NCBI RefSeq assembly: GCF_002571385.2
Contig: NW_019217874.1
Coordinates: 191,602 to 242,192 of the forward strand
DNA length: 50,591 nucleotides
Direction of reading: 5' to 3'
Origin: Stylophora pistillata
Taxonomy: Eukaryota
Below the pieces are notes generated by a model. That model had not been told where the DNA came from. It saw only the letters and a list, made by a program, of their open reading frames with translations, and made no database searches. The position numbers and the translations under genes are program-made. This document shows, one piece after another, positions 2,573 through 44,131 of this stretch (the first letter of the stretch is position 1; each line of letters begins with the position of its first letter).

Positions 2573-4180
2573 CTAGTCTTGTCCAGAGTATAATTTTGCA
2601 AGTCTTTTAAATTTCTCTGCTTCTTGGGGATTCTTCTCCACCCCATCACCCAAAGCATACATTCGACTGACATTGATACATCCCCATGGGTGTGACATCT
2701 CACAGCTTTTTAAGGATAGTTCAAAAGCTTTTTTCATGTCTTTTGGGATTCCATCTTTTCCAGTGAGATAAATTGCACTCAAATTGAAGCAACCGTTCCT
2801 ATGTCCATAGTTACAGGCCTTGGTAAAAAGTTCTATAGCCTTTGGCAAATCCTTTTCTATTGTCGATCCTTTTACTCCTTTTTGATACAGGAGTCCTGCA
2901 TTATTGCAAGCTCCTGGAGATTTCTTCTCACAACCTTCTTGGAATAAGCTCATTGCTTTCTCAGGATCTTTGAATTCTTGAATAAACACACAGAGAGTAA
3001 AAAAATCATCAGTTAGTAGAAGTACACACACTATGTAAATATTTTCTTTGATTTCAATTTGCTATTGAAGAAATTGACTGCAACAAAAAATTTTCTCTTC
3101 ACTCCAAAGTTTGACTTGACAAAATAAAGGTCTTGAAGTTAAGGGTGCATCTTACAACCAAGTGGATCTCAAACAAAATTAATATCATAACGGCAAATAA
3201 ATTATTGTTCTAAAAAGAAAAAACTAATGCTTTCTCATCCTTTGGCAAATATCAACTTGATTGTACAAGTATAGTTACATCAAAAAATCTTCCAGAGGCT
3301 ACTCACAATAGTGCTCTAGATGCAAATCTCAAGAAATATAGAACCACTTACTTTTGTTGGTCAGATAGAGGTTTCCTAAAGCCAGGCAACTTTCATTAAA
3401 ATTAAGCTCTTTACAGGTGTGTTCATAGAGTTCCTTTGCTTTATCTATATCCATTTCAATTGAAGCATAAAATTCTGCAAGTATGTGGCAAGCTACAATG
3501 GAGAGACAAGAGGAGACTTTGAAAAACTTTAAAATATAAATAAAAGTGCATCAAGTGTGAAATCACATTGACAGGTGCCAACACAGGGACAGGAGATTGT
3601 ATACCAAACTAGTAGTTACCATGTAATAAACTGAACCTTGAGATGTGTTAAAAGAAGAAAATTAAAAGTGTGGGGGGGGGGCATTGGACTTCTGTTAGGC
3701 ATAAAAACTGAGCCAATTCAAAATGGGTATCTATAGACAGGATCATTTCATTGACAAAAATAAATGTAACAAAAAAAAAAAAAAAAAACCCATACTGCCT
3801 GTCAAAAGTATAGTAGAAAATACAATTTAAGATAAATTCCTTTCAACAATTCCGCCATCCAAATATTCGTTTTTCCGAAATTATACAAAGATAACCGGCT
3901 AGATTGTCGAACATCTGCTAATATGCGAGTTATACTGCAGCTCCCGTAGTCCCACAGTCACCCTCGATAACGCACATAGCCCGTGGACAGTTTTACGCAT
4001 GTCATGAGGAGTTACATGATTGAACTGAAACATTAGGTAATCCTTGTAGTGCTGACCAAACAACTTACACTCTTTCTTTTTGGAACCGTAACACTCATGC
4101 TTGTAGAGATCGCGCAGTTGTTGACCATACTCTTCAGTAGCTTTGGCTACTTTGTCCTCTGGAGAGAGACCAAAAGGCAT
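2573..4180 (-). CDS. COA7: Cytochrome c oxidase assembly factor 7 / SEL1-repeat protein, 3 exons, ~218 aa
   Basis: Exons 4180-4069, 3492-3352 and 2976-2573 join in phase 1/1 across GT-AG introns (657 nt). The product has Cys-paired SEL1-like repeats (ECYGSKKKESCHILAEF, GCEKKSPGACNNAGLL, ACNYGHRNGCFNLSAIYLTG, SCEMSHPWGCINVSRMYALGDGVEKN), the pattern of COA7/SELRC1. Confidence 0.88.
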
Positions 4181-4481
4181 CTTTTCACCACTCTCTTTGC
4201 ACCAGATTACAATTTCGTGAAAATTTTCCAGGCGTCTCCCTCGTTATTCGTGGAATTTTGCGCATACATTCTTCAAACTATCCACTGACTCAGATGCCAC
4301 TGACTCACTTGATCGAGAGCTGAGGCTGTCAACGATCGTGACGTCACGGAGTGGTGGACTGATCTCCCAAACGAAGTCTGGCGACCTGAAGTATGTTTCC
4401 AGATTTCCATCCTGCTGAAAAAATGGGGTGAAAATCATCGCCTTGTCTGTCTATTGAAGACTTGAATCTAGTATTCTGACC
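4181..4481. promoter_or_regulatory. Bidirectional promoter between COA7 and the p85 gene, with two AP-1 sites and a perfect CRE
   Basis: 301 bp separate the divergent ATGs and the interval is locally CpG-rich. CCACTGACTCA occurs twice (TGACTCA at 4286-4292 and 4301-4307) and the palindrome CGTGACGTCACG lies at 4337-4348. Confidence 0.6.
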
Positions 4482-7400
4482 ATGGATTCTGGCTGGGCTC
4501 AGTACCGAGTAATTTATTCGTATCAGCCTCGTGATGAACGAGACATAGCTATTAGAGAGGGTGATATTATGGTGGTCGCAAAGCCTGTGTCCGACCCAAC
4601 TGGCTGGCTTACCGGAGAAAACACGCGCACTAAAGACGTTGGCGAGTTCCCTGGAACGTATGTGGAATATATCGGCGATGTTAAGGAACTTCCTCAGGAG
4701 GAGAAACCTCCAACACCACCTCCAAGGCCACCAAGGCCTGCACGACGGAACGCGGGAGGAAATAACAGTGCGCGCACTGATGCAAACGGTTAGTTGGGAA
4801 CTTGTTTGTGTATTTATTTCAACAGTGTTTGACTATTTCGTTTTCATTATAGAAGCTTAAGGGATAGTAGTTATTTAGCACCACTCGATAAGAAATCGAT
4901 GCCTTTTGTAGTCATGAATTGTATTTTATTAGCTGCACGATAACGTTTAGGCATCATTGCAGTTCTTAGCTTCCTTACAAACTGATCTTTTTCGCGGATA
5001 TCTACAGGATGTATTCGGGTTTTTGTTATTATTTTGGCTTTCCCTATTTATACTAACGTTGCATCTATTGTGGTGAACATATCGGTTCGTAATGTCAAAT
5101 GGTGGAAGATTATTTACGTGTATATATATATCATAAAACTTACAATCAACTGTTTGTTTATTTATGATGATTCATTTGTCGATTTCCTTGTTTTGAGCAG
5201 AAAGAATGCATGCTCTAAAATATACAAATACCCGAAGCTGGTAGTTCCCTGAAATTTTTTGCAAGGAGTAGTCACTAGAAGTCAACTTATCACTAGTTTA
5301 AAATGCATCCCTGAGCCACTCTGTAGCCCTTTATCTATTTTTTTACGGCCTCTTGCTTCTCATTAACATGGTTTTTCCATAATTTACAAAAAATTTTTCA
5401 ACAAACCATTTTTTGTGCCTTACAGATCAAACAGGTGGCCATACACTGACTGAGACATCTGCTATGAAACCTGTGTGGTGTTGCCAATGTGAGTAGCATG
5501 CAACGTGAAGTCCAATCCACAATGAAAAAATTATCAATTTGTCAGTGTAATAAATTCCAAGGGGACTTTCTCAGAGCTTGATCGTTAATCTCCTGTGGGA
5601 AACTGTAACTAAGTGTGAATGTAATTCATGAACAGTTTATTTGTAAACGACAATATTACATTTACTCTTGGCAACATTGGTCTTTATCTAGTCAATTAAT
5701 TTCATTTTTATTCACCTCTGAATGTTTTCTATTGTACTCATGTAATACATTTATTTAAAATTTTGGGTTTGTGTTTGAAAATGTGCAGCTATTTGCATAG
5801 TACTTCAGTCCTTATTTGATTAAATTGACTAAGGGAAAACTGAAAGGGTTGGCTATTTACACAAGATCTAACCCAAACTGTGGTTTTACTCAAACACTGG
5901 GCCTTACATATTCTCTACAAGGGGTTGTTTACATTAAATAGTGGTCCTCCAACTGCAAGTTTTTGGCCCTCTTGACACTGTTCACAAAAATATATGTTCA
6001 GATAAAAGTTCAGCTAAATTTAAGATTATTTAGAATGCGGTTTTGTTAAACAATGGCTAAACTTTGTCAAAAAAATCAGCCAAAGTAAGTTCCAGTTTGC
6101 TTCCTGACTTCTGATGATTTTTAAATTAATTTTTGTAACTGTTTTAATTTGTAGGTGAAGACTTCATCTGGGGAGTTGGAAGTGAATTGTACAGATGTGC
6201 AAGTGTGTAATAGTTATTATGATCAGATAAAATATTTGATATTTATTTATTATAATTTATTACAATTTAATGCAATTAACAAAATAAAATACTGTAACCT
6301 AATTAAGAAAGGAGAAATACTGTAAGGTTGATCTGTAAAGGAGTCATAGACCCCATATACAGAACAATCACTTTACTAAATTAATGTGATATACTGTTAG
6401 GAATAATAGACCAATAGTTATATAAAAGAAAGTCTCAACAATAATTGTCAAAAAAAGATTAAACTATGTAACTCTGAATTTTTTATAATTAGACCAATTC
6501 AGTTGGTATTCTTGAAAAAGTTCCTCACACCTGGCTCTTAACAAATAAAGAAACCCCAGCTGTACTCTGTTCTGTTGTAAAGCAAGCAGTAAGCAGCCAC
6601 AGCACAAAATAAGTGTAGAGAGAAACACAGGACATAGTTGAGTGTTTTTCCCCACCTCTTGAGTGCTCTAGCTGCTACCCAAGTACTTTATAACAGAACA
6701 GAACTCAGTCAAGGCTTTTTTATTTGTTCCATAAAAGAGAATCTGTCATATTTGGGTAACTTTCTATTTTCGGAAAAAATTATTAGTTTTGATGCACACA
6801 AAATTGTTGTCAGCATATTTTATACTTTCGCAAAACATGCTGAAATAAGCAAGCAGAATCCTTGTTAGAAGGGTTCAATTAATCTGATTGGTTGAATAAG
6901 ATCAAAGCTGTCAAAAATGTCAGACCATAAAAGTTCATAAAACATCAAATTTTGCAATCTGCAATAGTTACCAAACTGAAACAGTTTGGAAAGTCAAATT
7001 TGACACTTTTGCTTGTAGATTTGTAGTCTTAATACAGATTGTGAAAGTGAAATGTTCAGAGAAATCTAGCTTAATTGTGGCTGATAAAACCATGCAAGTT
7101 TTTTCACATAACAATTAGAAAACAGATTCTCCAGGTGGTGTTTTATCAATGAACAACAGCCAAATTCATGGAAACAAGAAGTTTGCTTGGGGTGACAGTA
7201 CTTCAAAACTCTGCTGCTGTGATTGACATGGCCTTCCACCCAATGTATTGAAAAGGATATTAGAGCAAGCTCCTAGTTGTTCACTTAAAGGGCGAATGTT
7301 ATTTCCAAGGCTTGCTCAACTGTGTTGATTGCAATGGACCACATGGTTGCAGTCGCTCTGACAACATCATGATTTATACAAATTTTAACATTTATGCCAG

Positions 7401-10400
7401 TTTGGTTATACTTTTCATCATTCCTGTTTTTGAACAAGAAACTATATAAACAATACAAGTGTAAGAGTTTTATTACCATATGTAAACCTATGATCTTACT
7501 GAGTACAAGAACCCTCAAAACTCGGACAAACTATTTTGTTTTAATTATGGTGATTTTTGTCTCTGCTCACATTATAATAATGTCATATAAAACAGGCTGT
7601 TTCAACCAATGACAAAGCAAGTTATATCCAAACTTTATTATAATTGCATTTAGAAGCGATTATTCATGACAACAATACAATTTAAAAGACTAAACATAAA
7701 AGGATTTATTTGAGCATAGTTCTTTATTGTAAGTTTCTCTCTCTCTCTTTGTTTCAGTGGGCACAAAGTAGTATGGCTGTATAAGTTAGCAGTCAAAGAA
7801 ATATCCAAATTGATATAACCATTCAAAACTATCATTAATGTACCAATTATCTGTTTTTACAGTGTGTGATTTAGCTTGGCATCCTCAATGTGCAGTGGAA
7901 TTGTCTAAGTTTCCCTGTAAGATTCTCAAAAAAGAATCAGAAGAACCAGATGAAGATTATATCAGATTTGTTGCTGTAAGTACATTCTGAATGAAAGCTT
8001 TTATAATATGCTGCTCTTTGCTGAGGATTTGCAAATCAGTTATGTACAACAGTTTGGTCACAGTCTCAGAATGGCCCAAAGATCCTTTTGAATCAGACAA
8101 ATATATTAAGTATGAGTTGCATTTCGTGTGAATACAACAAAGTATGATTTGAAAGAAAGGGGAGAGGGACAAGTAAAAGAATCAAAGGAAATCAACATTA
8201 CCTCAAAACTCAGCAGTTTCAGAATAATTGTGATGAAATAAAGTAGGACATTTCTTTTTGCAACCAAATTAAGTTATTGATGCCTTCAAGGGATTAGAAT
8301 CAAGCGACTATGGGTAGGGATGCACTTTCATGTGGATTAACTGCTGGATGAAAATTGATTGGGTAGCAAGTAAGTCAATACAGGCAATCAACTTCTAATA
8401 ATGAAGATCTCTTAGAGATTAGGTAAAACAATTAGATATTCATTTATGTAATGATAATTTCAACACACATGTGCAATAATGGCATCATTTGATTTGATAC
8501 CAAATACATGTACCTAATGGTGACCACTATTTCTGAAACAAAGCTTATATTTCAAAACTTTTATTGTTGATTTATGTTTAGTAAATTGCACAGTGTTACA
8601 TGCATGTATGTCAGTGATCATAGGTTCTTCCGAGGGAAAAAAGGCCTGAAACCAGTTCGCTTAACAATTCAATGTGGCAGAATTATCTCTTTCTTTCTTA
8701 TGATGTAATTGAAACTCCGCATAAGAATTAGACATTCTGTGCATTTAATTGAATATTTTGTCCATTAGAACTGTGTTCTTCAGTTACAAAGTGAACTGTT
8801 TCAAGTTTTATAAGTTGTTTTCTTTATATTCATTCTCGGTATGCTGCAGTATGGCAAGCCAATTGTAGCAATATTCAATAAATGGATTTTTTAATTCAAA
8901 GAGTCTAGTTTAGTTCAATTCAACGTGTAAATTTATGTTCAGCATACTATTTTTTGGGTTCAATGTCCCATTTTGCATTCAATACACTTTGTTATCTTTC
9001 AGTGCGATTGCTTCAGTTCAACCTCTTTTTTTATTTCAATTGAGCATATTATGTTCAACACTTTTTATTTTGTTCAATGCAATTTATTTTCGTTCAATTA
9101 TTTACTGCACAGCGGTTGACCGAAAGAACTCTAGCTTCCCCAGTGTTCACTTCTTGCTTGCCTTCCTAGCCCACCATTTTGAAGAAAACAATGAGTAGTT
9201 GTCAGGACAAAATAATGGATCGCTCATCTCTTTTGAAGTTGTCGTCTTGGCTTGGAGAAGCTTCAGAGCTTGTGAAAGAGATTTTAGACGAAGAGACTGC
9301 TAGCTCTGAGACATCCCGGCCTGAAACTTCAAGTTCTTGTGGGAACCGAGTGTTTTCAGCGTTGCAAAGAGCGAGGTCCATGTTAAACTCATCACAATCA
9401 AGGTGTTAAATGGGGTTGACAGGGTTCAGCCAAGGTTCTAAGCAAGCTAATTGTTTAATCGACAACTGTCTGCGTTTGCAAACTATCTAGCAGTCTCCTC
9501 CAAGTAAAAACTGTTCTGCTTTGTCCAGAACTGTATGAAGAAATGTTGATAGGTCCCTGTCAGCATTAAATTTGATTGTAAAGACATTACGATCGATCAC
9601 GAAGCAAAAAATTAAAATGGCTTCTCAAAAAGTATTCCAGCTTTTTGTGACCTGCCGAGATCAAAAGGGACTGGGCAATAATGGTCAACCGCTGTGCAGT
9701 AAATAACTGGATGAAAATAAATTGCATTGAACGAAATAAAAAGTGTTGAAAGTAATATGTGCAATTGAAATAAAAAGAGGTTGAACCGAAGCAATCGCAT
9801 TGAATGATACCAAAGTGTATTGAATGCAAAATGGGACATTGAACCCAAAAAATAGTATGCTGAACATAAATTTATGCATTGAATGGAACTAAACTAGACT
9901 CTTTGAATTGAAAAATCCATTTATTGAATATTGCTACAATTGGCTTGCCATACTGCAGTAAACTTAATTGACTTTTCAATTTAAAGTTTTTAATTAAAAA
10001 TGTTGCTATGAAAACTTATTCACCAAAAAGGAAAATAGGAAGCATAATGCAGTAGCACAATCACTTCCACTTATTTCAGAGTCCAGATGAATGGGATATG
10101 AATGATGTTTTGGTGTGGCTTGCTGCAACCAACCATTTCCTCTATGCTGAGATTTTCAGAGAACACGAAATCACAGGAATTCAACTGCGGGACTTGACAA
10201 CCACCTCATTAGACCAGATTAATATTACAGATAGCTTTCATAAGCAATCTATCCTGCTAGCTATCCAAGAATTGTTCACCGGAGAGTCAGAGACTGTGAG
10301 TGTTAGCTGTACAATTGTACATTACATTGTGCAATTGTATATTACAATGTACAAGTGTAATATTCAGTACTTATACCTCACCAGTGATCTGTGCCTATTG

Positions 10401-13400
10401 CATGCTCATTAGTTAACTAGGAGTCATTTCACTGATTACCATTTACCTGAGCTCTTTGTGGCCCATTACGGGCAAACTGCCTTGTGGTTACTTTGAGATG
10501 AAACTGTTTTTGAAAGGAGGAGGGTGTCATTAAAAAAAAAAATTCGAATTGGGGAGAGAGTTTGGTTGACTTTGACCGTATGAAAATCATGTACATGAAT
10601 TGCAGGTTAATAATGAATTAATGTGAGAATGATCTTTGCAGTAATGAACACCACTTATTAAGTAGTAATGAAAATAGAGCCTGAAAAATATTCAGGCCTG
10701 CATGGGAGTTGAAGCCATGAACAGGTGTTACCGGTGCACTGCTCTACCAACTGAGCTTAGAAGTCAACTGGGAGTTGGTCATTTTGTTGGTTTGTAAGAA
10801 ATTCATCAAGTGTTGAATAAATGACTGGCAGTGAATATAGTATAAGAAAACCATATAATTTTATGTGAACTGTGGACTAACAAAAGACTATGAGGGTGAT
10901 CTTCACAGGGATGAACACTATATGTAGGGTGTATAATGGTGTAAAACAATGTTGATAAGTAATGATAAATCATCTCTTTACAATCAAGGTAATGTTGACA
11001 TGGTTATTGTGACTACACTATCATGTTAGTAGTCTGACAATGTATTCTCTTTATTACAAACAGAGAACATCAGAAGTATTTAGTGGTTTTCAGTCAGCCC
11101 AAAGAGGTCAGTTTGATGCTATGTTAAGTATGACATTCATATTTAGTTAAAGGAACTTTAAGTTGAATGTGGCCAGTAATCTTGGATTGCCCTGGTTTTG
11201 CTGTGCTTCACTCTGATTGCTAGAGGAAAGTCTTGCAACACTCTTTCTGTCTATCAGGTGCAGGAGTCCATTCATTTTTGTTTTATTAGCAAAATTATTA
11301 CATTTGGAAAGTTGAATTTTTCAAGTGAGGAGAATAAAAGATATTAACCTTTTAACTTTCAAGATCTGATTGCTAATTCTCCCCTCTAGCTGCTACACAC
11401 TTCCTTGTAAAGTGGTAATGAGAATTTGGTGTTAAATCAGGGTAACAACTACCTGATAAGTTTGAATACTCTCATTACCTGTTTGCTGGGTAAGGTATGG
11501 AGAAGATAGGGAGAATTTTTATTTTGATCACTTCTGGGAGTTTATTGGTTAAATTCACTGAGCTTAATATCAGGAATGAGATTTGACTTGACAGATATTT
11601 GGAAATTCTTGATTTGCTGTTTGGTCCAAAAATCTGAAGAAAAAGTCAAATTAAACATTTTGTTTTTGGGCATTCAATATTGCTGACTTGAATGATATTT
11701 TGCTCCTATTTCTTGTTAGTTATCTGCTGTCATTGTAACTTATTAGTCAGATGGAGACTGATTGTGCTAGAGTGTTTATTTTATTGATAGGTACAAAGGG
11801 TAGTCATCTCCCCAAAGAACAGAACTTCACGTCTCTGCAGTGGTGTGACAAGTGTGGCAAGTGTCTGTGGGGATTGTTCAGACAGGGAGTTTTGTGTTCA
11901 GAGTGTGGCTTTCAATGTCACAAGAAGTGTATGTTTGACAGTGTTGTGGTATGTCCAAGGAGAAGGGTTAGAATACGAAGAGAAAGTGACGCTGATGGTA
12001 AGATATGGATGCCTTTGCTTATCAATTTATTTGGAGGAGTCACTAAGGACTATTATAAACCGCAAAACTGTAGAAAAAATCATCAAAATTGTAAAACCAC
12101 AAAAAAATTTCGTCAAAACTAAAAACTGCTTGCAAAACTGTCTAAACCAACAATAAAATTTTTTGCATCCCAGTTATCAAAACCTGAAGTGATCCAACAC
12201 ATTGGTAACAAGTGGAGCATACAGAGGTTTCACAGTTATTTGAGATTAGTGGAGAAGCATAATTGCCTCCCTTGTTTGAGCCAAGAGGTCCAACGCTTTT
12301 TTGAAAAATTAAGGGTGTATATATCTTATTTAATCAGTTATGTCAGAGACTAGTTAAAAATATACACTTATTTAACTTCTTATTAATTGCATTTGAGTTT
12401 ACTAATTTTTTGTTTCCTAATTCTAAATTTTTCAATTTTGTTACTTTTTAGTTCCTGTGTTTGGAGCAGAGCTGGGTGCACAGTTTCAACCAACTGATAG
12501 ACCAGCACCAATGGTTGTCACAAAATGTGTTCAGGCCATAGAAAAAGGAAATACAATAAGGACAGTTGGTATCTACAGCATTGTGCCATCAGGAAGTGAA
12601 AAGAATGCTCTTAAGACTGCTTTAAATCAAAGTGAGACTATGTAAAATCTTAAGTTATTCTCTTACCGCAGTATAAGAGTTCATTGTTTTCCCCTTTCAC
12701 TCCCAAAATCTCTTTTATTAGCAATTCTCCTTACAGCCTGCCACACAATTCATATGATGTTAGTTTTGAGAATTTGGTGTTGGATCAACTACTAATCCCT
12801 TATAGTCATAATTCTCATCATCTGACTACGGTACTTGATATTGTAAGGAGAAATTCTGTCTTAGTCACTTATGGGAGTGAAAGGGTGCATCGATCATCTT
12901 ATTGGATGATTAGAGTTTGTCATTTTTGGACTGTTTTTTGTCAAGTTAAATTGTTTTTATTCATGTTGGTTTGTGCTGCTCTGTGTGATGGTAAAACGGG
13001 GGTGTTCAACTTATGCTGATTGTAGGACAGAGAAAAAGTATGATAATGGACTTGTTCCTGTAATAATCCTAACTTATCAGCATGAATTTGTGTGCCACAG
13101 GTGCCAAAAATGTGAACATGGATGATGAAGAATGGAGGAATCCTCATTGTGTTGCCACAGTTCTTAAAATGTATCTAAATGAGCTTCCAACATGTGTGTT
13201 CACTGAGGACAAGTATCTATCATTTGTTAAAATCTTTAGAGGTAAGTAATTGTCAAGGATGTACTTGTAGTTACTCTTAAAGTACGTAGAAAACTACTAA
13301 ATGCAGTTACAAACTGAAGACTCTAAATGGCATCTACTTATGACCTTAATATGATCCCAAGCAGGATTAAAAGACCTTATTCCTGAAAGTGTAGAATAAA

Positions 13401-32859: not shown

Positions 32860-35719
32860 TTGAATCTGATGCATCTAGGCATTTTTATTGACTTAAAAGA
32901 ACTCTATGAAGCACACTTAACTAAATGGTGTGTGACTTGGTTTTAGGTGGTGTATCAAATTGCTTCGTGTGTTGAAGTTAGCAGAAAAAATAGGCCTCTT
33001 CCATTGTCTATACTTTTATAATTTCTTTTTAAAGGAAAACATGGAAATACTGAAATGCAACTTGGTAATCTTCTTTTGCTCTTTGTATGCATCCATCAAT
33101 TATTATCTTTTTCAAGCATGGAAAGGCCCATCCCCTGTGGTTACTCTTGCTTTAGTTACCAAACTAATTTAATTTCATGTTTAATAATAAAAAAAAAGAT
33201 AAGAAACAACTTTGTAACATATTTTATGGTTTGCTTTCCTCCCCTGTTATGTTGTGGCATTTGTGCTTCCTTGCATGGAAAGCCCAGATGAAAAGGGGAA
33301 CTGAGAATTTGTGCAATGACTGGAGAAGTAAGAGCATTAAGAGTGTATTATGAATGGAATAAACTATTTAGATGATTATCTCTCAAAATAGTAACATGAA
33401 GAACCCAAAAATGAATGATGAATCTGTGAAGATTCATAGTCGAGACAAATCATTACCAAATTAAATTGTATGTTGAAGTTAAGGTTTAGATACTCCCTGC
33501 AGAGTAGAGAACAATATGAATGACTGCATGCAGATATGCAGAGCTAAATCAAGCATGCAACCTTATTGTTGTCCTTTATTCTTATCACCATTTATGGTAA
33601 GTTCAATTAAAGAGATTTCGCGTATAATCGTTTTCATGCGAATGTAAATTAGTGCACCTAAATTAAGGTCACTTCCCACCAGTAGATGCTGACTAAATTG
33701 GAGTCACATTTTAACTTTACGAAAAAACAAAAATCCCTTATTGCGTGCGAGTTATTTAGAAGAACGTATTTTCAAATTTCAATAAATCTGGAAGGTGTGA
33801 CAATCTCGTACCTGGGTGAGTCCCCTGGGGGTATTCTCGTGGCAAGGACTCTTTTTCATGTTTTCTGCATACTTGATGAAAGCGACTGATACTTTGCTCC
33901 ACGCTGGCGTTCAGATGTCGTATAAAGAAGTCTCCGTCAAAACAAAATTTTTCGTTTATTAAGTTAAAAACGAGGTTACCAGCCTTGATACAAAAACATT
34001 CACAAGCGCCTCGAATCCAGTTTTTCCATTTTTGCTGCGGGTTTTTCCGTTGCCTTTGACAACTTTGCCCATTTTTGTGTCGTTCTCCTCAACGCGCCAC
34101 CGAGCGATTGGGATAAAAAAAGAAAAAAACGCGTCTGCAATGCGTTACTTTCCCGGGAAATCTTGATTCGTCGTCATTGCGCTTCACGCCTTATCGGGTC
34201 CTGACGCTTTTTATTGGGAAAACTCGCTGAAATTATATTATTATCGAAAACTTCATAGTTTGCTAGGATTTTAGTGATGCTGACGCGCGTACGTATTTCT
34301 TCCGAAGGACATCCACGTAGGTGGGAGGTAATAGCGCTAAACTGGTAGATTCTATGCAGTAGCTAATGTTTTATCGGTGGAACATCAAACCAACAAAATT
34401 CCAGATCACATTGTAGACCATCAACGAATCCTTTTTCCTTGACACGTGTTTCGGTTTCAGGCGAAGGTTCATACAGGTCACTGGTCTTTTATGGGCTCAG
34501 CGCTGACTCCCAAACAACTGGCTTCCCCATAATCTTTCAATAGCTGAGAAAAATAGGTGTTTTTAGAGAACCTATAAATTTATAATTATTTATTATTCTT
34601 GAGGATTCTAACTTTTGAAGAGCTCAACTTCTTCTCGGTTGTTTCTCATTTCGGTCTGCCACTTCCGGATCCTCGCTGTCTGCCTACTCCATGGGTCACT
34701 ATTTTACTTCAGAAGAAGTTGTTTCTAGTAGGGCCTGAATCGTCGGTACAGCGCCAGGAAGAAGTACTTTTTTGGTTTTTAAGGCCCATTTCAACCATGT
34801 AGCTTTTCCCGTAACAATCGGGAGAAAATTGACTGGTATAAGCAACAGAATGTTCGGAAGGCTCGACGACATCGGCTCTTCTCAATTGAACAAATTTGCA
34901 CCTTTCGGAAATTTATGCCCGATTTTGTTTGAATTGGTACAAAACTGAGCGACAATGCTTTACCATCATGAAAAAATTGAATATATTCAAACAGATTGTA
35001 AGCACAAAAATCGTGACGAGACCGGCAAAGAACGGCTTCGAAAAAGACTTGCACGTATTTCAAGTACGTATTTCAAGTATTACACGTAGTACCATACTAA
35101 CTATGTAAAAATTTTTGACCGCCAGTACCGCAAAGTGCCACAAACAGCTTTGTGAATAGAAAATGAACGTTTTTGGGGCTTACACATAGTACCATACTAA
35201 CTATGGCTTAAATGCCCTTTAAACTGTGTTCTCAGGAAAGGCATCTACATGGGCAGTAGCTGCTCAACCATTCCCAAATTATCATGCGTACATTGGTAAT
35301 ATAACCCTGGCTGGAGGGAACCAAAGTAAGGTTTGGTAAAAATGGGACCAACAAGATGGCAAGACGTAACTTGACTCAAACATGATCAATTTAAGAGAGA
35401 TTGTCTTCTAGAAAGAACCTTTCTGTTACAACTGGACCCTTTGAAAAGTCAACATCTAAGGCCTGATACTAAATCATCAAATTTACTTTCAACAAGATTT
35501 TCCAAGTTTTAAAGAATGTCTAAAGGAAGTGAAACTCTATTAACTGCTTTTCAGCCCATTGATACTGATAAAAGATTTGTGCATGAGCAAAATTAACAAA
35601 ATGTTCACAAGATGTTGTATTCTACCTTGTACCTTACCTTTCATGGTAGAATAGAGGGGCCTCTGAATTTGTGTAAGCCAGTTGAAAATGAGTCATGGTT
35701 TCTGGACAGAAAAACAATT

Positions 35720-36691
35720 TTAAGAATGTTTGTTAGCAAGGCTGGCCACAGCCTCAACAAATTTGTAGTAGTTGTACTTGATATCATATTCCATATCATA
35801 CCAAAAATTGACTGCAATGCACCCATGAGATTGTTGAACATGATGAAACCATAAGGAAGGTAGATACAACATCTCCCCTGCAGTCACTACACATGTGACA
35901 GGGTTAGCTTTTGCATAGTTTGGATATTTATTCAGATCTGGATTCAATGGATCAATAGCAATCCAGGGCACTTTTTGTTTTAGTGCTGCTTCTGTAAAGT
36001 TCTCAACAATTTCGTCCACAATTTCAAAATCACCATTATTGCTAGCTTTATATCTGGCTGGGGAGTATAATTCATAAGGAATCAAAGGCAAGTCACTTGG
36101 TGGTAACAATGTGAAAACTTTAGAACCAGAAATCACGCAATATAAATTTTCATAATGATCTTTGTGCATCGAGGTGACAGCTCTTTTGTCTCCCATCCAA
36201 AAGTTGACTGCATCAGGGTTTTTATCAAATGCCTCTGTTGCCCAAGGTATATCACATGCAGCTTCTTCGCATAATTCTTTAAAATCGCTCGTTAAGTTAG
36301 AATTTTGCTTCTGAACGTAAAATATCCCTTGTTCTTTAGATTTTCCTTCAAGAATGTCTAGAAACTTGGAGAATTCCATCTCCCGTTCTTCCGGCATGAC
36401 GAACTTATCTCCCACTACGGCATCCGCGTATCCATTAGGTGTGACCGCAACAGTTACGGTCCTGTGTCCAATTTTCTGTCTCAAATAATCGCTATTCCAT
36501 TTTTCAAGCGCTGGCCAATGATTGAACGCGTTTTTTATGATAACTGGAACATTTGGGCTCACCCAGTCCCTCAAAAATTCCAAGGGAGTCGGAGGTTTTC
36601 CAAGCCTTGGCACCTCTAAATTAAGATAAAGTTCTTTCGCTTCGACTGATAAGTTTTCTAGCGCTTCTGATAACCTATTTACCGAGGCCAT
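35720..36691 (-). CDS. JMJD7: JmjC domain-containing protein 7 (lysyl hydroxylase), intronless CDS, 323 aa
   Basis: [44 protein letters not shown] (HxD) and [28 protein letters not shown]. Confidence 0.95.
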
Positions 36692-36850
36692 TTTGTCGGA
36701 AAGGCCAAAGCATAATTTTTAGACGTTGTCCGCCATAATGAACGTAAAGCTTGGTTACCAAGTTGATAAGTTCCCAGGAATCCTCAGCCTAATTTTATTC
36801 TACATTCCTTCCCTTCGTTGAGATTTATTGCGTCTCTTGCTGGAGTAATT

Positions 36851-37453
36851 ATGCTTCTAATTCTTTCTGAGCAGCAAAAAGAACATTTGAAGTTCTTGAC
36901 ATCTTTGGAACTCGATATAGTCCTTGAGTTTGCCCGAATATCCCTGGATTCTATTCTCAAAGGCTCTTCGAATCCCAAAATCTTCCAAGCGGCTGCTCAA
37001 AAGCTCGGCGTTGAGGTGGACACGGTGAAAAATGGAATTAGTGGTTTGCAAAATGTCTTCACAGAGAGTTCTCGCTTGATGGTTGGTCAAATTGACTTTC
37101 AGGATTCCATTATGACACTTGGTTTCTCCGAAGAAATGATCGGTGCTTTGTTGAAGATGTATTTGGAAAATCGCAAAGAAATTAGGAACATCTTGGGAGA
37201 GATGAGCTTGCGAACCGCACATTACCACGATCTGGAATGGAGATTTGATGTAGAGCTTGCCAGCAGGTCACTGCAGCATCAGACAAACCCTGTGATCATT
37301 ATGAGGTTACATACAAAACGGGGAGAGAAGAAGTCCGCAGACATACTTCAAACTGATCCAGTGAACTTGATTCATCTTACTTCAGAGTTGGAAAACGCAA
37401 TGCAGGAAATGAAAACTGCTCACTGCCGAAGAATTGTTCGAAATATAAAATGA
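36851..37453 (+). CDS. COMMD2: COMM domain-containing protein 2, intronless CDS, 200 aa
   Basis: The N-terminus MLLILSEQQKEHLKFL, the COMM domain YHDLEWRFDVELASRSL...LQTDPVNLIHL and the C-terminus MKTAHCRRIVRNIK all match COMMD2. The ATG at 36851 is preferred over the upstream TTG. Confidence 0.95.
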   Translation: MLLILSEQQKEHLKFLTSLELDIVLEFARISLDSILKGSSNPKIFQAAAQKLGVEVDTVKNGISGLQNVFTESSRLMVGQIDFQDSIMTLGFSEEMIGALLKMYLENRKEIRNILGEMSLRTAHYHDLEWRFDVELASRSLQHQTNPVIIMRLHTKRGEKKSADILQTDPVNLIHLTSELENAMQEMKTAHCRRIVRNIK

Positions 37454-42035: not shown

Positions 42036-43685
42036 TTACTCACTTTCCTCACCAGATCTATTGTCCATTTCCATGCTGATATCATTGTCTTCTTTCATGT
42101 CTGTGTTGACCTCAATTGTTAGCTGTTCAAGAGTTTCACCCAGCATGTGAACACTAAAAGTATCCTCTCGTTGAATTCCAAGTGCCTTATGGAAATAGCC
42201 TATTGCTTCATGGTGATTTCCTAAGAGACTACTGACAAAGCCAAGGGCAGAGAAAGTGGAAGCCTTGTTTGGAACAAGAACAAGTGCTTGCTTGTGGTAT
42301 CGTAATGCTTCTTGGTATCTCCCTAGCTTGCGGCAAGCGTGGCCAAGGTTACTAAGCAGAGTTTCCCAAGTTTCTGAGAGAACTTCCCCGCTAGTGATCT
42401 GCGCTTTCTGGAGAGCTGCCTTGAAGTTCTTTTCTGCTGAAAGATAATCTCCATTTTGAAAGGCAATCACACCCATTTCCTGCTTCACAAAAGGATCATC
42501 TGGTGAAAGAATTAAAGCCTGTTCAAAAAACCTTTCAGCCAGTTTTGCATTATTGGTTTTTCCATACTCCAGGCCAATATAGAGAAGAGGCAGATGGCAT
42601 CTTGGCATCAGCTTAGATGCTGTGAAGTAAGCTGCCATTGCTTGATCATGCTCTCCTTCTGCAGCAAAAGCATGCCCAAATGCAAGCCATGCTGGTCCAT
42701 AAACTCGTTCCAGACTGGTAGCTTTGCTAAAGTACCTCCTAGCCTGCTCATACTTTTCAATAACATAGTAATAGCAGCCAACTGCATACCAAGCGACTGC
42801 CTTATGGGGATAGTTATCAACCAGCTTATGTCCAAGGTAAAACAATTCATTCATTTTCTTCAGTTCTACCAGGCAGGTGATATGAATGGGCAAGCAAGCT
42901 TCATGATAAGGATCAGACATCAGGACAGCAGATGTCATCTTGTATGACTGATGGTAACTGCAGTTGTAAAAGTGCCGCTCAGCCATTCCAGCGACTACAT
43001 CCAGGTTGTCATACAAGCTTTCCAAACCAGGAGGTAGCTTCGGGTCAACTGGTTTGCAGTACCTTTTCATCTTTCCTTCGTACAAGAATTTCAACAAATC
43101 AACCTCTTCAGGCATGCATTGCTCCGAGAAAGGCAGAGAAGAAAGCAATTCTCGTTCTTCTTTATCGGTCAGCATGTGATGAGAAACAAGTAGATCAAAC
43201 GCTTCAAAACAGCGCACGTCATTTTTGAGGGCATCTTTGAAACAATCTGTGGCTAAAGCTCGGTTATCCATAGCCTCATACACGACTCCTTTCAACAAAC
43301 AAACTGCACTTTCGAGCTTTTTCGTTCCGCCGACAAAGCAAATCTCCGCTAGATCCTTTTCTGTCGGCTCCTTTTGCTCCATGTCCAGAACTTCTAGAGC
43401 TTCCTGCCATTGTTTACATTCTGCATGGCACTTGGCGGCCAGATAGCGGCATGCTAGGCTCGTCTGAAGAACGCCTCCACGGCTTCTAAGCACGTGTGAA
43501 GCTCGATGGAATTGAGCAGTTAGAAATAAAGTCTGGGCAAGCCAGTATACATCTTGGATGTCTCCATTAGACAGGGATACAGCTTTATCTGCCCAAAACA
43601 AAGCCGTTTTGTACAAATGCATGTCTATATATTGACGAACAAGGTTTCGAAGTTGAGAGATATCAACCTTCCCGCCAGTCGCCAT
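42036..43685 (-). CDS. CDC16: Anaphase-promoting complex subunit CDC16/APC6 (TPR repeats), intronless CDS, ~549 aa
   Basis: LRNLVRQYID..YKTALFWADK, WYAVGCYY, FSKATSLERVYGPAWLAFGHAFAAEGEHDQAMAAYFTA and LSNLGHACRKL. The likely start is MATGGK at 43685 (AAGATGGCG context), not the ORF-track TTG at 43835. Confidence 0.95.
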   Translation of the reverse strand: MATGGKVDISQLRNLVRQYIDMHLYKTALFWADKAVSLSNGDIQDVYWLAQTLFLTAQFHRASHVLRSRGGVLQTSLACRYLAAKCHAECKQWQEALEVLDMEQKEPTEKDLAEICFVGGTKKLESAVCLLKGVVYEAMDNRALATDCFKDALKNDVRCFEAFDLLVSHHMLTDKEERELLSSLPFSEQCMPEEVDLLKFLYEGKMKRYCKPVDPKLPPGLESLYDNLDVVAGMAERHFYNCSYHQSYKMTSAVLMSDPYHEACLPIHITCLVELKKMNELFYLGHKLVDNYPHKAVAWYAVGCYYYVIEKYEQARRYFSKATSLERVYGPAWLAFGHAFAAEGEHDQAMAAYFTASKLMPRCHLPLLYIGLEYGKTNNAKLAERFFEQALILSPDDPFVKQEMGVIAFQNGDYLSAEKNFKAALQKAQITSGEVLSETWETLLSNLGHACRKLGRYQEALRYHKQALVLVPNKASTFSALGFVSSLLGNHHEAIGYFHKALGIQREDTFSVHMLGETLEQLTIEVNTDMKEDNDISMEMDNRSGEESE

Positions 43686-44131
43686 CTTGGATTTTTGGGG
43701 AATACCGCTTAAATGTTGTGAATTTACCTTGGCGCAAATTTCTTTTGTGGGGGTGGGGAGAGGGGAGTCAAAAAATATTGATTCACTAATTTGGTTATCT
43801 TTTAGTCCTTTGATTTTGGATTCCCTCTTAATCAAATTAAGATACCTTATGTATGGTGCTGCATTTTCGATATTTCAATTCAACTCTCAATCTTTGATTC
43901 GTTATTGATTCGTTCCTTTTAGATTTTGTCACCTCTCCCCACAGGACAATTTGACTAAACTGCGACTGCGGAGAAAATGGCCGCGAATTGAAGTGGAATG
44001 TAATTGTTAGGCAGTTTTCCCCTTAATTTCTTCGCGGCCGTGTCCTTATGAGGATTTTGTTCACCATATGTTACGAGATATCGGCTAGTTTCTGCTGAGC
44101 TGTGGTTGTTACAACTCGAGGCTTTCCAATC

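What the first reader, a model, noticed from the sequence alone, without database searches (positions are those of the whole stretch)
4482..26893. p85 PI3K adaptor with an extra C1-SAM-C1 module: a candidate lipid-sensing, oligomerising PI3K regulator
Seen: between the SH3/proline-rich region and the RhoGAP lie a C1 domain split over exons 2-4 (H-x12-C-x2-C-x13-C-x2-C-x4-H-x2-C-x8-C, invisible in the ORF track), a SAM domain ([23 protein letters not shown]) and a second 50-aa C1. Known: vertebrate p85 is SH3-BH-SH2-iSH2-SH2 only, and C1 next to RhoGAP is the chimaerin arrangement. Inference: this may be an ancestral, longer p85 coupling DAG or membrane sensing and SAM interactions to p110. Similar architectures may already be annotated in other invertebrates, but I know of no functional characterisation.
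Basis: partly seen in the sequence, partly recalled or inferred. Interest (0 to 1): 0.7.

Follow-up and report, generated by a model that had tools for sequence, protein, structure and literature searches.

The report
Ancestral long-form PI3K p85 subunit
This coral gene is spliced into one message for the regulatory (p85) subunit of the growth-signalling enzyme PI3K, with an extra C1-SAM-C1 block that many invertebrates and choanoflagellates share and human p85 lacks; the block likely docks the protein on membranes, but in corals probably does not sense the lipid messenger DAG.

Summary
A 24-exon gene (4482-26893, +) encodes 957 aa: SH3-C1-SAM-C1-RhoGAP-SH2-iSH2-SH2. A transcript-derived protein matches it at 956 of 957 residues, and RNA joints link the C1/SAM exons to the SH2 exons. 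It is the only p85 found in this genome. The architecture is not special to this coral: it occurs in choanoflagellates, a sponge, hydrozoans, a crinoid, molluscs, annelids and arthropods, many already named PI3K regulatory subunits. A 2015 paper reports C1 and SAM in non-vertebrate p85 (PMC4617754). So it is likely the ancestral p85, trimmed in vertebrates. DAG sensing is doubtful in corals: both C1 domains fail the four-residue DAG consensus, and the RhoGAP lacks its arginine finger. Both features are intact in two sponges and one choanoflagellate. Oligomerisation was not tested. New leads: the module is predicted to pack with the RhoGAP as one unit, and a basophilic kinase motif in the C1-GAP linker recurs in 9 of 21 lineages. 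My searches found no functional study.

The parts
4482..26893 (+). Class IA PI3K regulatory subunit gene, 24 exons, 957 aa. Exons: 4482-4788, 5426-5488, 6155-6202, 7863-7975, 10080-10295, 11064-11106, 11791-11997, 12452-12631, 13101-13241, 13606-13708, 14432-14527, 15593-15681, 16362-16458, 16546-16641, 17164-17344, 18458-18598, 19209-19327, 20038-20214, 20311-20370, 20636-20650, 21167-21208, 22080-22130, 26345-26440, 26701-26893
4494..4742 (+). SH3 domain (aa 5-66) and first proline-rich motif (aa 76-87)
   Evidence: Pfam SH3_1 E 2.2e-7; aligns to human p85alpha 6-109; coordinates
5440..7918 (+). First C1 domain (aa 108-158), split over exons 2-4. All 8 zinc ligands present; Pro11 and Gly23 kept, Gln27-Gly28 replaced by Glu-Leu; net charge -2
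10086..10280 (+). SAM domain (aa 180-244), exon 5
   Evidence: Pfam SAM_1 E 3.6e-10; PDB matches aveugle, SAMD12, DGK-delta, Shank, E 1e-5 to 2e-3
11805..11954 (+). Second C1 domain (aa 269-318), exon 7. Trp22, Gly23, Leu24, Gln27 and Gly28 kept; Pro11 replaced by Leu; net charge +3
11955..11987 (+). Basic C1-GAP linker (6 Arg in aa 320-327) ending in an RxRxxS motif at Ser329, a predicted basophilic-kinase site
   Evidence: sequence
12466..15653 (+). RhoGAP/BH domain (aa 338-526). Ser375 at the usual arginine-finger position; Arg499 aligns to human Arg274
15675..16390 (+). Second proline-rich motif (aa 534-545)
16433..17320 (+). N-terminal SH2 (aa 560-652); Arg586 and Lys606 align to human Arg358 and Lys379
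18485..20353 (+). iSH2 coiled coil (aa 670-820); Asn788 aligns to human Asn564
   Evidence: Pfam PF16454 E 1.8e-23
22108..26857 (+). C-terminal SH2 (aa 855-946), exons 22-24, spliced across a 4.2-kb intron that holds the assembly gap

Best explanation
This is one spliced gene for the coral's class IA PI3K regulatory subunit, in a long SH3-C1-SAM-C1-RhoGAP-SH2-iSH2-SH2 form that is likely ancestral; it likely binds and gates p110 as p85 does, while its C1-SAM-C1-RhoGAP half is predicted to fold as one unit that would dock on anionic membranes and GTPases rather than sense DAG. Shown: gene structure, splicing, domain order, distribution, and the residue changes in both C1 domains and the GAP. 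From established p85 biology (recalled, with PMC7458397 passages): nSH2-iSH2 hold and inhibit p110, and the SH2 domains bring the complex to phosphotyrosine receptors. Inferred: the basic second C1 and the arginine-rich linker add an electrostatic membrane contact like the RacGAP1 C1-GAP unit; the acidic first C1 and the SAM are structural or protein-binding; the coral GAP is weak or inactive on Rho/Rac; phosphorylation of Ser329 by Akt or a similar kinase would loosen membrane docking as feedback. Confidence is about 0.97 for the identity and about 0.5 for the docking mechanism.
For: Human p85alpha matches aa 338-949 at E 5.9e-118, with the SH2 arginines, Lys379, Asn564 and Arg274 positions kept. 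One nSH2 match and one p110 p85-binding domain were found in the genome. Of 150 best 50%-identity representatives, 56 have a GAP and two or more SH2; 28 of these 56 carry C1-SAM-C1 and 13 more SAM-C1. Named carriers span choanoflagellates to insects. Pfam found SAM and C1 in 10 of 10 non-vertebrate proteins and neither in turtle p85beta, which groups with bilaterians (quick tree, SH-aLRT 97). DAG consensus: 0 of 12 corals complete in either C1; arginine finger in 0 of 11 corals with a residue there. AlphaFold: no disordered segment between SAM, second C1 and GAP; the Lottia N-terminal half gives pTM 0.82 over 526 aa. C1-SAM-C1 with GAP as two chains: weak support, score 0.40, best control 0.01, contact agreement at least 24%, partner pLDDT at least 84. 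That mark was reached by 51 of 78 solved and 2 of 108 mismatched pairs, but at 0.60 or under by only 5 of the 78 and by all 4 mismatches that passed of 180; in eukaryotes by 39 of 65 solved pairs without a like complex (71 of 105 in all) and 2 of 126 unrelated pairs. These are halves of one protein and chimaerin C1-GAP structures exist, so likeness may contribute. Linker motif in 9 of 21 lineages against 0.74 expected, and 11 of 12 corals. Precedent: RacGAP1 C1 and GAP bind PS/PIP2 membranes together (PMC12895376).
Against: No binding, lipid, GAP or phosphorylation experiment was possible. The second C1 keeps Trp22, Gly23, Leu24, Gln27 and Gly28, and Gln27 is kept in 57 of 58 rows, so some DAG or other ligand binding is not excluded. 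Its net charge is only +3 and ranges from -2 to +6 across the family; the basic linker is missing in many relatives. The linker motif is absent from 12 of 21 lineages (all 6 arthropods, all 3 choanoflagellates, Ephydatia, Dimorphilus, the fluke) and from P. damicornis; it was noticed in the query first, and kin are not independent. The pTM 0.82 is for a mollusc orthologue; the full coral model has pTM 0.52. One of three complex runs scored 0.17. The tree is a quick one, holds one vertebrate, and places choanoflagellates beside cnidarians, against the species tree. The survey profile was built from coral long forms and so favours them.
Confidence: 0.55

Rival explanations
1. The coral protein is a true DAG/phorbol sensor: the second C1 captures DAG made by phospholipase C and recruits or opens p85-p110.
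For: The second C1 is closest to PKC beta and delta C1 domains in the PDB (E 1.6e-12) and keeps Trp22, Gly23, Leu24, Gln27 and Gly28. It is 82% identical among corals, more than SAM or GAP. Two sponges and Salpingoeca urceolata have all four consensus residues.
Against: Pro11 is Leu or Met in 12 of 12 corals, and position 20 is Cys or Ala rather than a large hydrophobe. PMC9110374 calls this proline strictly conserved in DAG-sensitive domains. The first C1 lacks the Gln-Gly pair in 12 of 12 corals. Many bilaterian second C1s have Arg at position 22.
Confidence: 0.2
2. The module's main job is SAM-driven clustering: p85 self-associates or binds a partner SAM protein and so concentrates PI3K at receptors.
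For: The closest solved SAM domains are aveugle, SAMD12, DGK-delta and Shank; their hetero- or homo-association is recalled. Human p85alpha dimerises through its N-terminal half (PMC7458397).
Against: The best-kept SAM positions across 53-57 rows are mostly hydrophobic or glycine, and many others vary. The predicted compact module suggests the SAM packs within the chain. No self-association test was run.
Confidence: 0.15
3. In corals the module is a lipid-independent scaffold or a relic kept for fold stability.
For: Catalytic and DAG residues are altered in corals. Turtle p85beta lacks the block, as does human p85alpha, so a p85 can work without it.
Against: The block is 70-82% identical among corals, as high as GAP and iSH2, and is kept from choanoflagellates to insects, which argues against a relic.
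Confidence: 0.1
4. Two neighbouring genes, or a chance join of exons.
For: The gene spans an assembly gap (24637-24794) and a duplicated stretch.
Against: RNA joints chain from exon 4 to the last exon, including 33 and 39 reads across the gap intron. P0002 is whole, and orthologues have the same order.
Confidence: 0.005

Closest known systems
Vertebrate p85alpha/p85beta (PIK3R1/PIK3R2)
   Same: SH3, proline-rich, BH, proline-rich, nSH2, iSH2, cSH2 in the same order; aa 338-949 match human p85alpha at E 5.9e-118; key SH2 and iSH2 positions kept.
   Different: About 230 extra residues (C1-SAM-C1) between the first proline-rich motif and BH; Ser where human has Arg151.
Invertebrate and choanoflagellate long-form class IA regulatory subunits (RefSeq 'PI3K regulatory subunit alpha-like'; Philippon et al. 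2015, PMC4617754)
   Same: Same domain order in named stony corals, Hydra, Clytia, Sycon, a crinoid, Owenia, Dimorphilus, crustaceans, dipterans and Salpingoeca. The paper reports C1 in Mollusca, Cnidaria and Ichthyosporea and SAM in Mollusca, Arthropoda and Choanoflagellida.
   Different: The passages read do not describe a two-C1 sandwich or a SAM in cnidarians, and assign no function; its Fig. 6 was not visible. Corals share a lost arginine finger and a strongly basic linker. A CDD family for such C1 repeats (C1_PIK3R-like) is recalled, not checked.
Chimaerins (alpha, beta2)
   Same: C1 directly before RhoGAP; aa 268-525 align to beta2-chimaerin as one stretch, E 4.6e-34; the Sycon orthologue does so with the arginine finger and full DAG consensus.
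   Different: No SH2 before the C1; coral C1 and GAP residues altered; only the GAP superposes on 1xa6/3cxl (193-194 residues). GAP-only matches do not single out chimaerin, so special kinship is not shown.
RacGAP1/MgcRacGAP C1-GAP unit
   Same: A C1 of conventional fold that binds anionic lipids together with the GAP domain (PMC12895376 passages): the working analogy used here.
   Different: RacGAP1 is an active Rac1 GAP with a coiled coil and no SH2; no sequence match of the tandem was tested.

Membership tests
Class IA PI3K regulatory subunit (p85) | nSH2-iSH2-cSH2 at the C-terminus | tested here: met
   Pfam SH2 twice and PF16454 over cut-off
Class IA PI3K regulatory subunit (p85) | SH3, proline-rich motifs and BH/RhoGAP in the N-terminal half | tested here: met
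Class IA PI3K regulatory subunit (p85) | SH2 phosphotyrosine arginines and p110-contact positions kept | tested here: met
   Arg586, Arg880, Lys606, Asn788 align to the human positions; their roles are recalled
Class IA PI3K regulatory subunit (p85) | A p110 with a p85-binding domain in the same genome | tested here: met
   PF02192, E 2.1e-27, at G000:C188
Class IA PI3K regulatory subunit (p85) | Binds and regulates p110 | not testable with these tools
   needs co-precipitation and a kinase assay
C1 domain fold | His/Cys zinc-ligand spacing in both repeats | tested here: met
   model pLDDT about 90 in both
DAG-sensitive (typical) C1 domain | Pro11, Gly23, Gln27, Gly28 all present (PMC9110374) | tested here: not met
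   first C1 2 of 4, second C1 3 of 4
DAG-sensitive (typical) C1 domain | Binds DAG or phorbol ester | not testable with these tools
   needs a binding assay
Chimaerin | C1 immediately before RhoGAP | tested here: met
Chimaerin | SH2-C1-RhoGAP order | tested here: not met
   SH2 domains lie after the GAP
Chimaerin / active RhoGAP | Arginine finger | tested here: not met
   Ser375 opposite the arginine; Ser or Gly in 11 of 11 corals with a residue there
Chimaerin | Closed C1-GAP geometry that hides the lipid pocket | tested here: inconclusive
   only the GAP superposes, on a predicted model of a mollusc orthologue
Polymerising SAM domain | Head-to-tail self-association | not tested
   the one complex job went to the C1-SAM-C1/GAP question

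The most novel reading that the evidence does not exclude
The ancestral p85 was a PI3K adaptor fused to a DAG-gated, active Rac-GAP cassette, still intact in sponges and Salpingoeca urceolata. C1-SAM-C1-RhoGAP is a rigid, undescribed supramodule, and an Akt-type site in its C1-GAP linker gives many marine invertebrates a direct feedback switch on PI3K. The vertebrate BH domain is what remains after C1-SAM-C1 was lost.
Probability: 0.2. Interest if true: 0.68.

Novelty: new member of a known kind. Interest (0 to 1): 0.38.

Why it matters
The gene itself is the ordinary p85 of a stony coral. What matters is that the textbook p85 layout is likely a shortened vertebrate form, and that many other animals carry a 230-residue block for which my searches found no functional study. 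If the block and the GAP form one membrane-docking unit, that would explain the origin of the weakly active BH domain. Sponge and choanoflagellate p85 would then be the place to test whether DAG and PI3K signalling once met in one protein. It also bears on insulin and growth-factor signalling in corals, molluscs and mosquitoes.

Tried and rejected
Two genes or mis-joined exons: rejected. A coral-specific innovation: rejected. A second p85 paralogue: PF16454 gave this locus and one match below cut-off in an 1840-aa frame, not followed up; the nSH2 exon gave only this locus; counts in this genome are lower bounds. Special descent from chimaerin: a search for C1-GAP outgroups with the Sycon tandem returned only the query, so no GAP tree was built; not shown. 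The careful tree did not finish; the quick tree was used, with 26 named rows, leaving out chimaerin, Lottia and all unnamed rows. The Atlas gave clusters with C1, SH2 and RhoGAP, commonest in arthropods, for the Montipora homologue: a lead only. Paper searches for this architecture or its function gave only PMC4617754 as relevant; some searches were for C1 criteria. A recalled 2011 survey of SH2 proteins in 21 species was not held and may show the architecture; most subscription journals are not searched. The 12 supplements of PMC4617754 were listed but not read and may bear on novelty. Earlier findings of this scan: none.

Full report
Observation. I rebuilt the gene from the sequence: 24 exons from 4482 to 26893 on the + strand, every intron GT..AG, one open frame of 957 aa. 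A search with the SAM exon returned P0002, a 957-aa protein from Logan contigs of at most 3986 bases. It equals the model except A192T. Pfam gives SH3, two C1 stretches, SAM, RhoGAP, two SH2 and iSH2. The nearest named relative is from Pocillopora damicornis (90% identity), so the host is inferred to be a stony coral.

One transcript. Four RNA runs laid on 4200-20400 show 15 listed joints, from 7975>10080 to 20214>20311, each in all four runs (10 further rows hidden). Laid on 19900-27300, three RNA runs show 21208>22080, 22130>26345 (33 and 39 raw reads, across the assembly gap) and 26440>26701. The 15-base micro-exon appears as letters between 20370 and 21166. The joints of exons 1-4 were not listed; they rest on P0002 and on one contig with exactly 225 letters beyond 4787. 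One X7 contig of 1379 bases carries exon 4, SAM, the second C1 and GAP exons together. No long read spans the whole message.

Family. Human p85alpha matches aa 338-949 (E 5.9e-118) and the SH3 region. The positions of Arg358, Lys379, Asn564 and Arg274 are kept; apart from Arg274 (PMC7458397, passages), their roles are recalled. The genome search found one nSH2 match, this gene, and one p110 p85-binding domain.

Distribution. Eleven other proteins, 56-88% identical over aa 100-335, carry C1, SAM, RhoGAP and SH2; the five named ones are stony corals. A profile of these 12 against 1.84 billion representatives listed the best 150. With domain profiles built from the family, 56 of the 150 have a GAP and two or more SH2. 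Of these, 28 carry C1-SAM-C1, 13 SAM-C1, 4 C1 only, 1 SAM only and 10 neither; some are partial models, and the profile favours long forms. I looked up 30 of the 150; 22 clusters had an organism name. Carriers include three choanoflagellates, Sycon, Hydra, Clytia, a crinoid, two snails, Lingula, two annelids, two crustaceans, four insects and a fluke; Ephydatia lacks a detected first C1. Pfam as an independent check found SAM and C1 in 10 of 10 non-vertebrate proteins (two C1 stretches in 6) and neither in turtle p85beta. In a quick tree of 26 rows the turtle protein falls in a bilaterian group (SH-aLRT 97). The tree misplaces choanoflagellates, so the order of events rests mainly on the species tree: long form ancestral, block lost on the way to vertebrates (inference).

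Are the C1 domains DAG sensors? PMC9110374 (passages) names four strictly conserved non-zinc residues in DAG-sensitive C1 domains: Pro11, Gly23, Gln27 and Gly28 in C1 numbering. The query's first C1 has two, its second three (Leu for Pro11). In one search, all four occur in 2 of 32 first-C1 rows and 6 of 58 second-C1 rows. Those 58 include one Drosophila chimaerin and two isoform duplicates; one unclassified row and domains off the zinc spacing were not counted. No coral has all four. The complete second C1s are Ephydatia, Sycon (two rows), Salpingoeca urceolata, an unnamed protein and a hoverfly that has Arg at position 22. The other two named choanoflagellates have degenerate C1s. Against a clean negative: the coral second C1 keeps Trp22, Gly23, Leu24, Gln27 and Gly28 and is nearest to PKC C1 domains.

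The GAP. Ser375 stands opposite the arginine finger. It is Ser or Gly in 11 of 11 corals with a residue there, and Arg in 20 of 46 other rows with a residue, among them both sponges, S. urceolata and the crinoid. The second C1 and GAP align to beta2-chimaerin as one stretch (Sycon). GAP-only matches are not specific to chimaerin, and a search for outgroups failed, so common descent of the tandem is not shown.

Structure. The full model has mean pLDDT 85.5 and pTM 0.52; disordered stretches are 72-101, 168-175, 532-552, 660-670 and 826-844, none between SAM, second C1 and GAP. The N-terminal half of the Lottia orthologue (526 aa) gives pTM 0.82, which suggests a fixed arrangement. Folding aa 103-325 with aa 333-530 as two chains gave weak support: 0.40 (runs 0.46, 0.17, 0.40), best control 0.01, contact agreement at least 24%, partner pLDDT at least 84. 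The mark was reached by 51 of 78 solved and 2 of 108 mismatched pairs, at 0.60 or under by only 5 of the 78 and all 4 passing mismatches of 180; in eukaryotes by 39 of 65 solved pairs without a like complex and 2 of 126 unrelated pairs. On the Lottia model only the GAP superposes on chimaerin, so the predicted arrangement is not the closed chimaerin one.

Linker motif. The coral C1-GAP linker has six arginines in eight residues and an RxRxxS motif at Ser329. RxRxx[ST] or RRx[ST] occurs in the same 16-residue window in 9 of 21 named lineages (coral, Hydra, Clytia, Sycon, crinoid, two snails, Lingula, Owenia) against 0.74 expected from the same proteins, and in 11 of 12 corals. It is absent from the other 12 lineages. 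The test was made after seeing the motif and kin are not independent, so it shows conservation, not function. The kinase assignment is recalled.

Mechanism. Most likely the C-terminal half binds and gates p110 like any p85. The N-terminal half is predicted to be a compact unit whose basic C1 and linker would add an anionic-membrane contact, as the RacGAP1 C1-GAP unit does (PMC12895376, passages), with a weak or inactive GAP in corals and a possible phosphorylation switch. DAG sensing (0.2) and SAM clustering (0.15) are the main rivals.

Novelty. Philippon et al. 2015 (PMC4617754; passages, figures not held, supplements listed but unread) already report C1 and SAM in non-vertebrate class IA subunits, and databases name these proteins PI3K regulatory subunits. 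Searches found no functional study and no description of the two-C1 sandwich; subscription journals are mostly outside that library. Verdict: a real, expressed member of a known but unstudied kind; interest 0.38.

Noticed in passing
window 22204-24636 and 32234-34666: A 2433-base copy (99.75% identical) of the 3' end of the downstream calreticulin gene sits in intron 22, ending at the N gap (Pfam on the upstream exon). Run X15, which covers introns like DNA, has depth 152 there against 131-194 for neighbouring contigs, and p85 reads skip it: probably a misplaced haplotype copy in the assembly.
   Followed up: partly
window 24796-26148: Five tRNA-Thr(AGT)-like copies in units of about 250 bases, three on the minus and two on the plus strand, in intron 22; very high depth in all runs, so a high-copy tRNA-derived repeat.
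   Followed up: partly
window 20636-20650: A 15-base micro-exon between iSH2 and cSH2, present in the RNA.
   Followed up: yes
window 16625-16819 and 19313-19578: Short tandem duplications that copy the donor sites of exons 14 and 17 into the intron; the listed RNA joints use the first donor.
   Followed up: partly
window 35723-36718 (-), 36770-37450 (+), 42039-43874 (-), 2576-3550 (-): Neighbours: single-frame genes for a Cupin_8 protein, a COMM-domain protein and an ANAPC3/TPR protein (APC6-like by recall), and a Sel1-repeat gene.
   Followed up: partly
window 3902-4243 (-): A 114-codon open stretch divergent from the p85 start; not identified.
   Followed up: no
P0001, P0006, P0007: Short SAM-only database proteins are the SAM exon read into the intron, so likely gene-calling artefacts.
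   Followed up: partly
P0162 (Drosophila arizonae chimaerin): Its C1 also has Leu at position 11, like the coral second C1.
   Followed up: no
P0050, P0061 (choanoflagellates): Both C1 repeats have lost zinc-ligand cysteines in these two species but are intact in Salpingoeca urceolata.
   Followed up: partly
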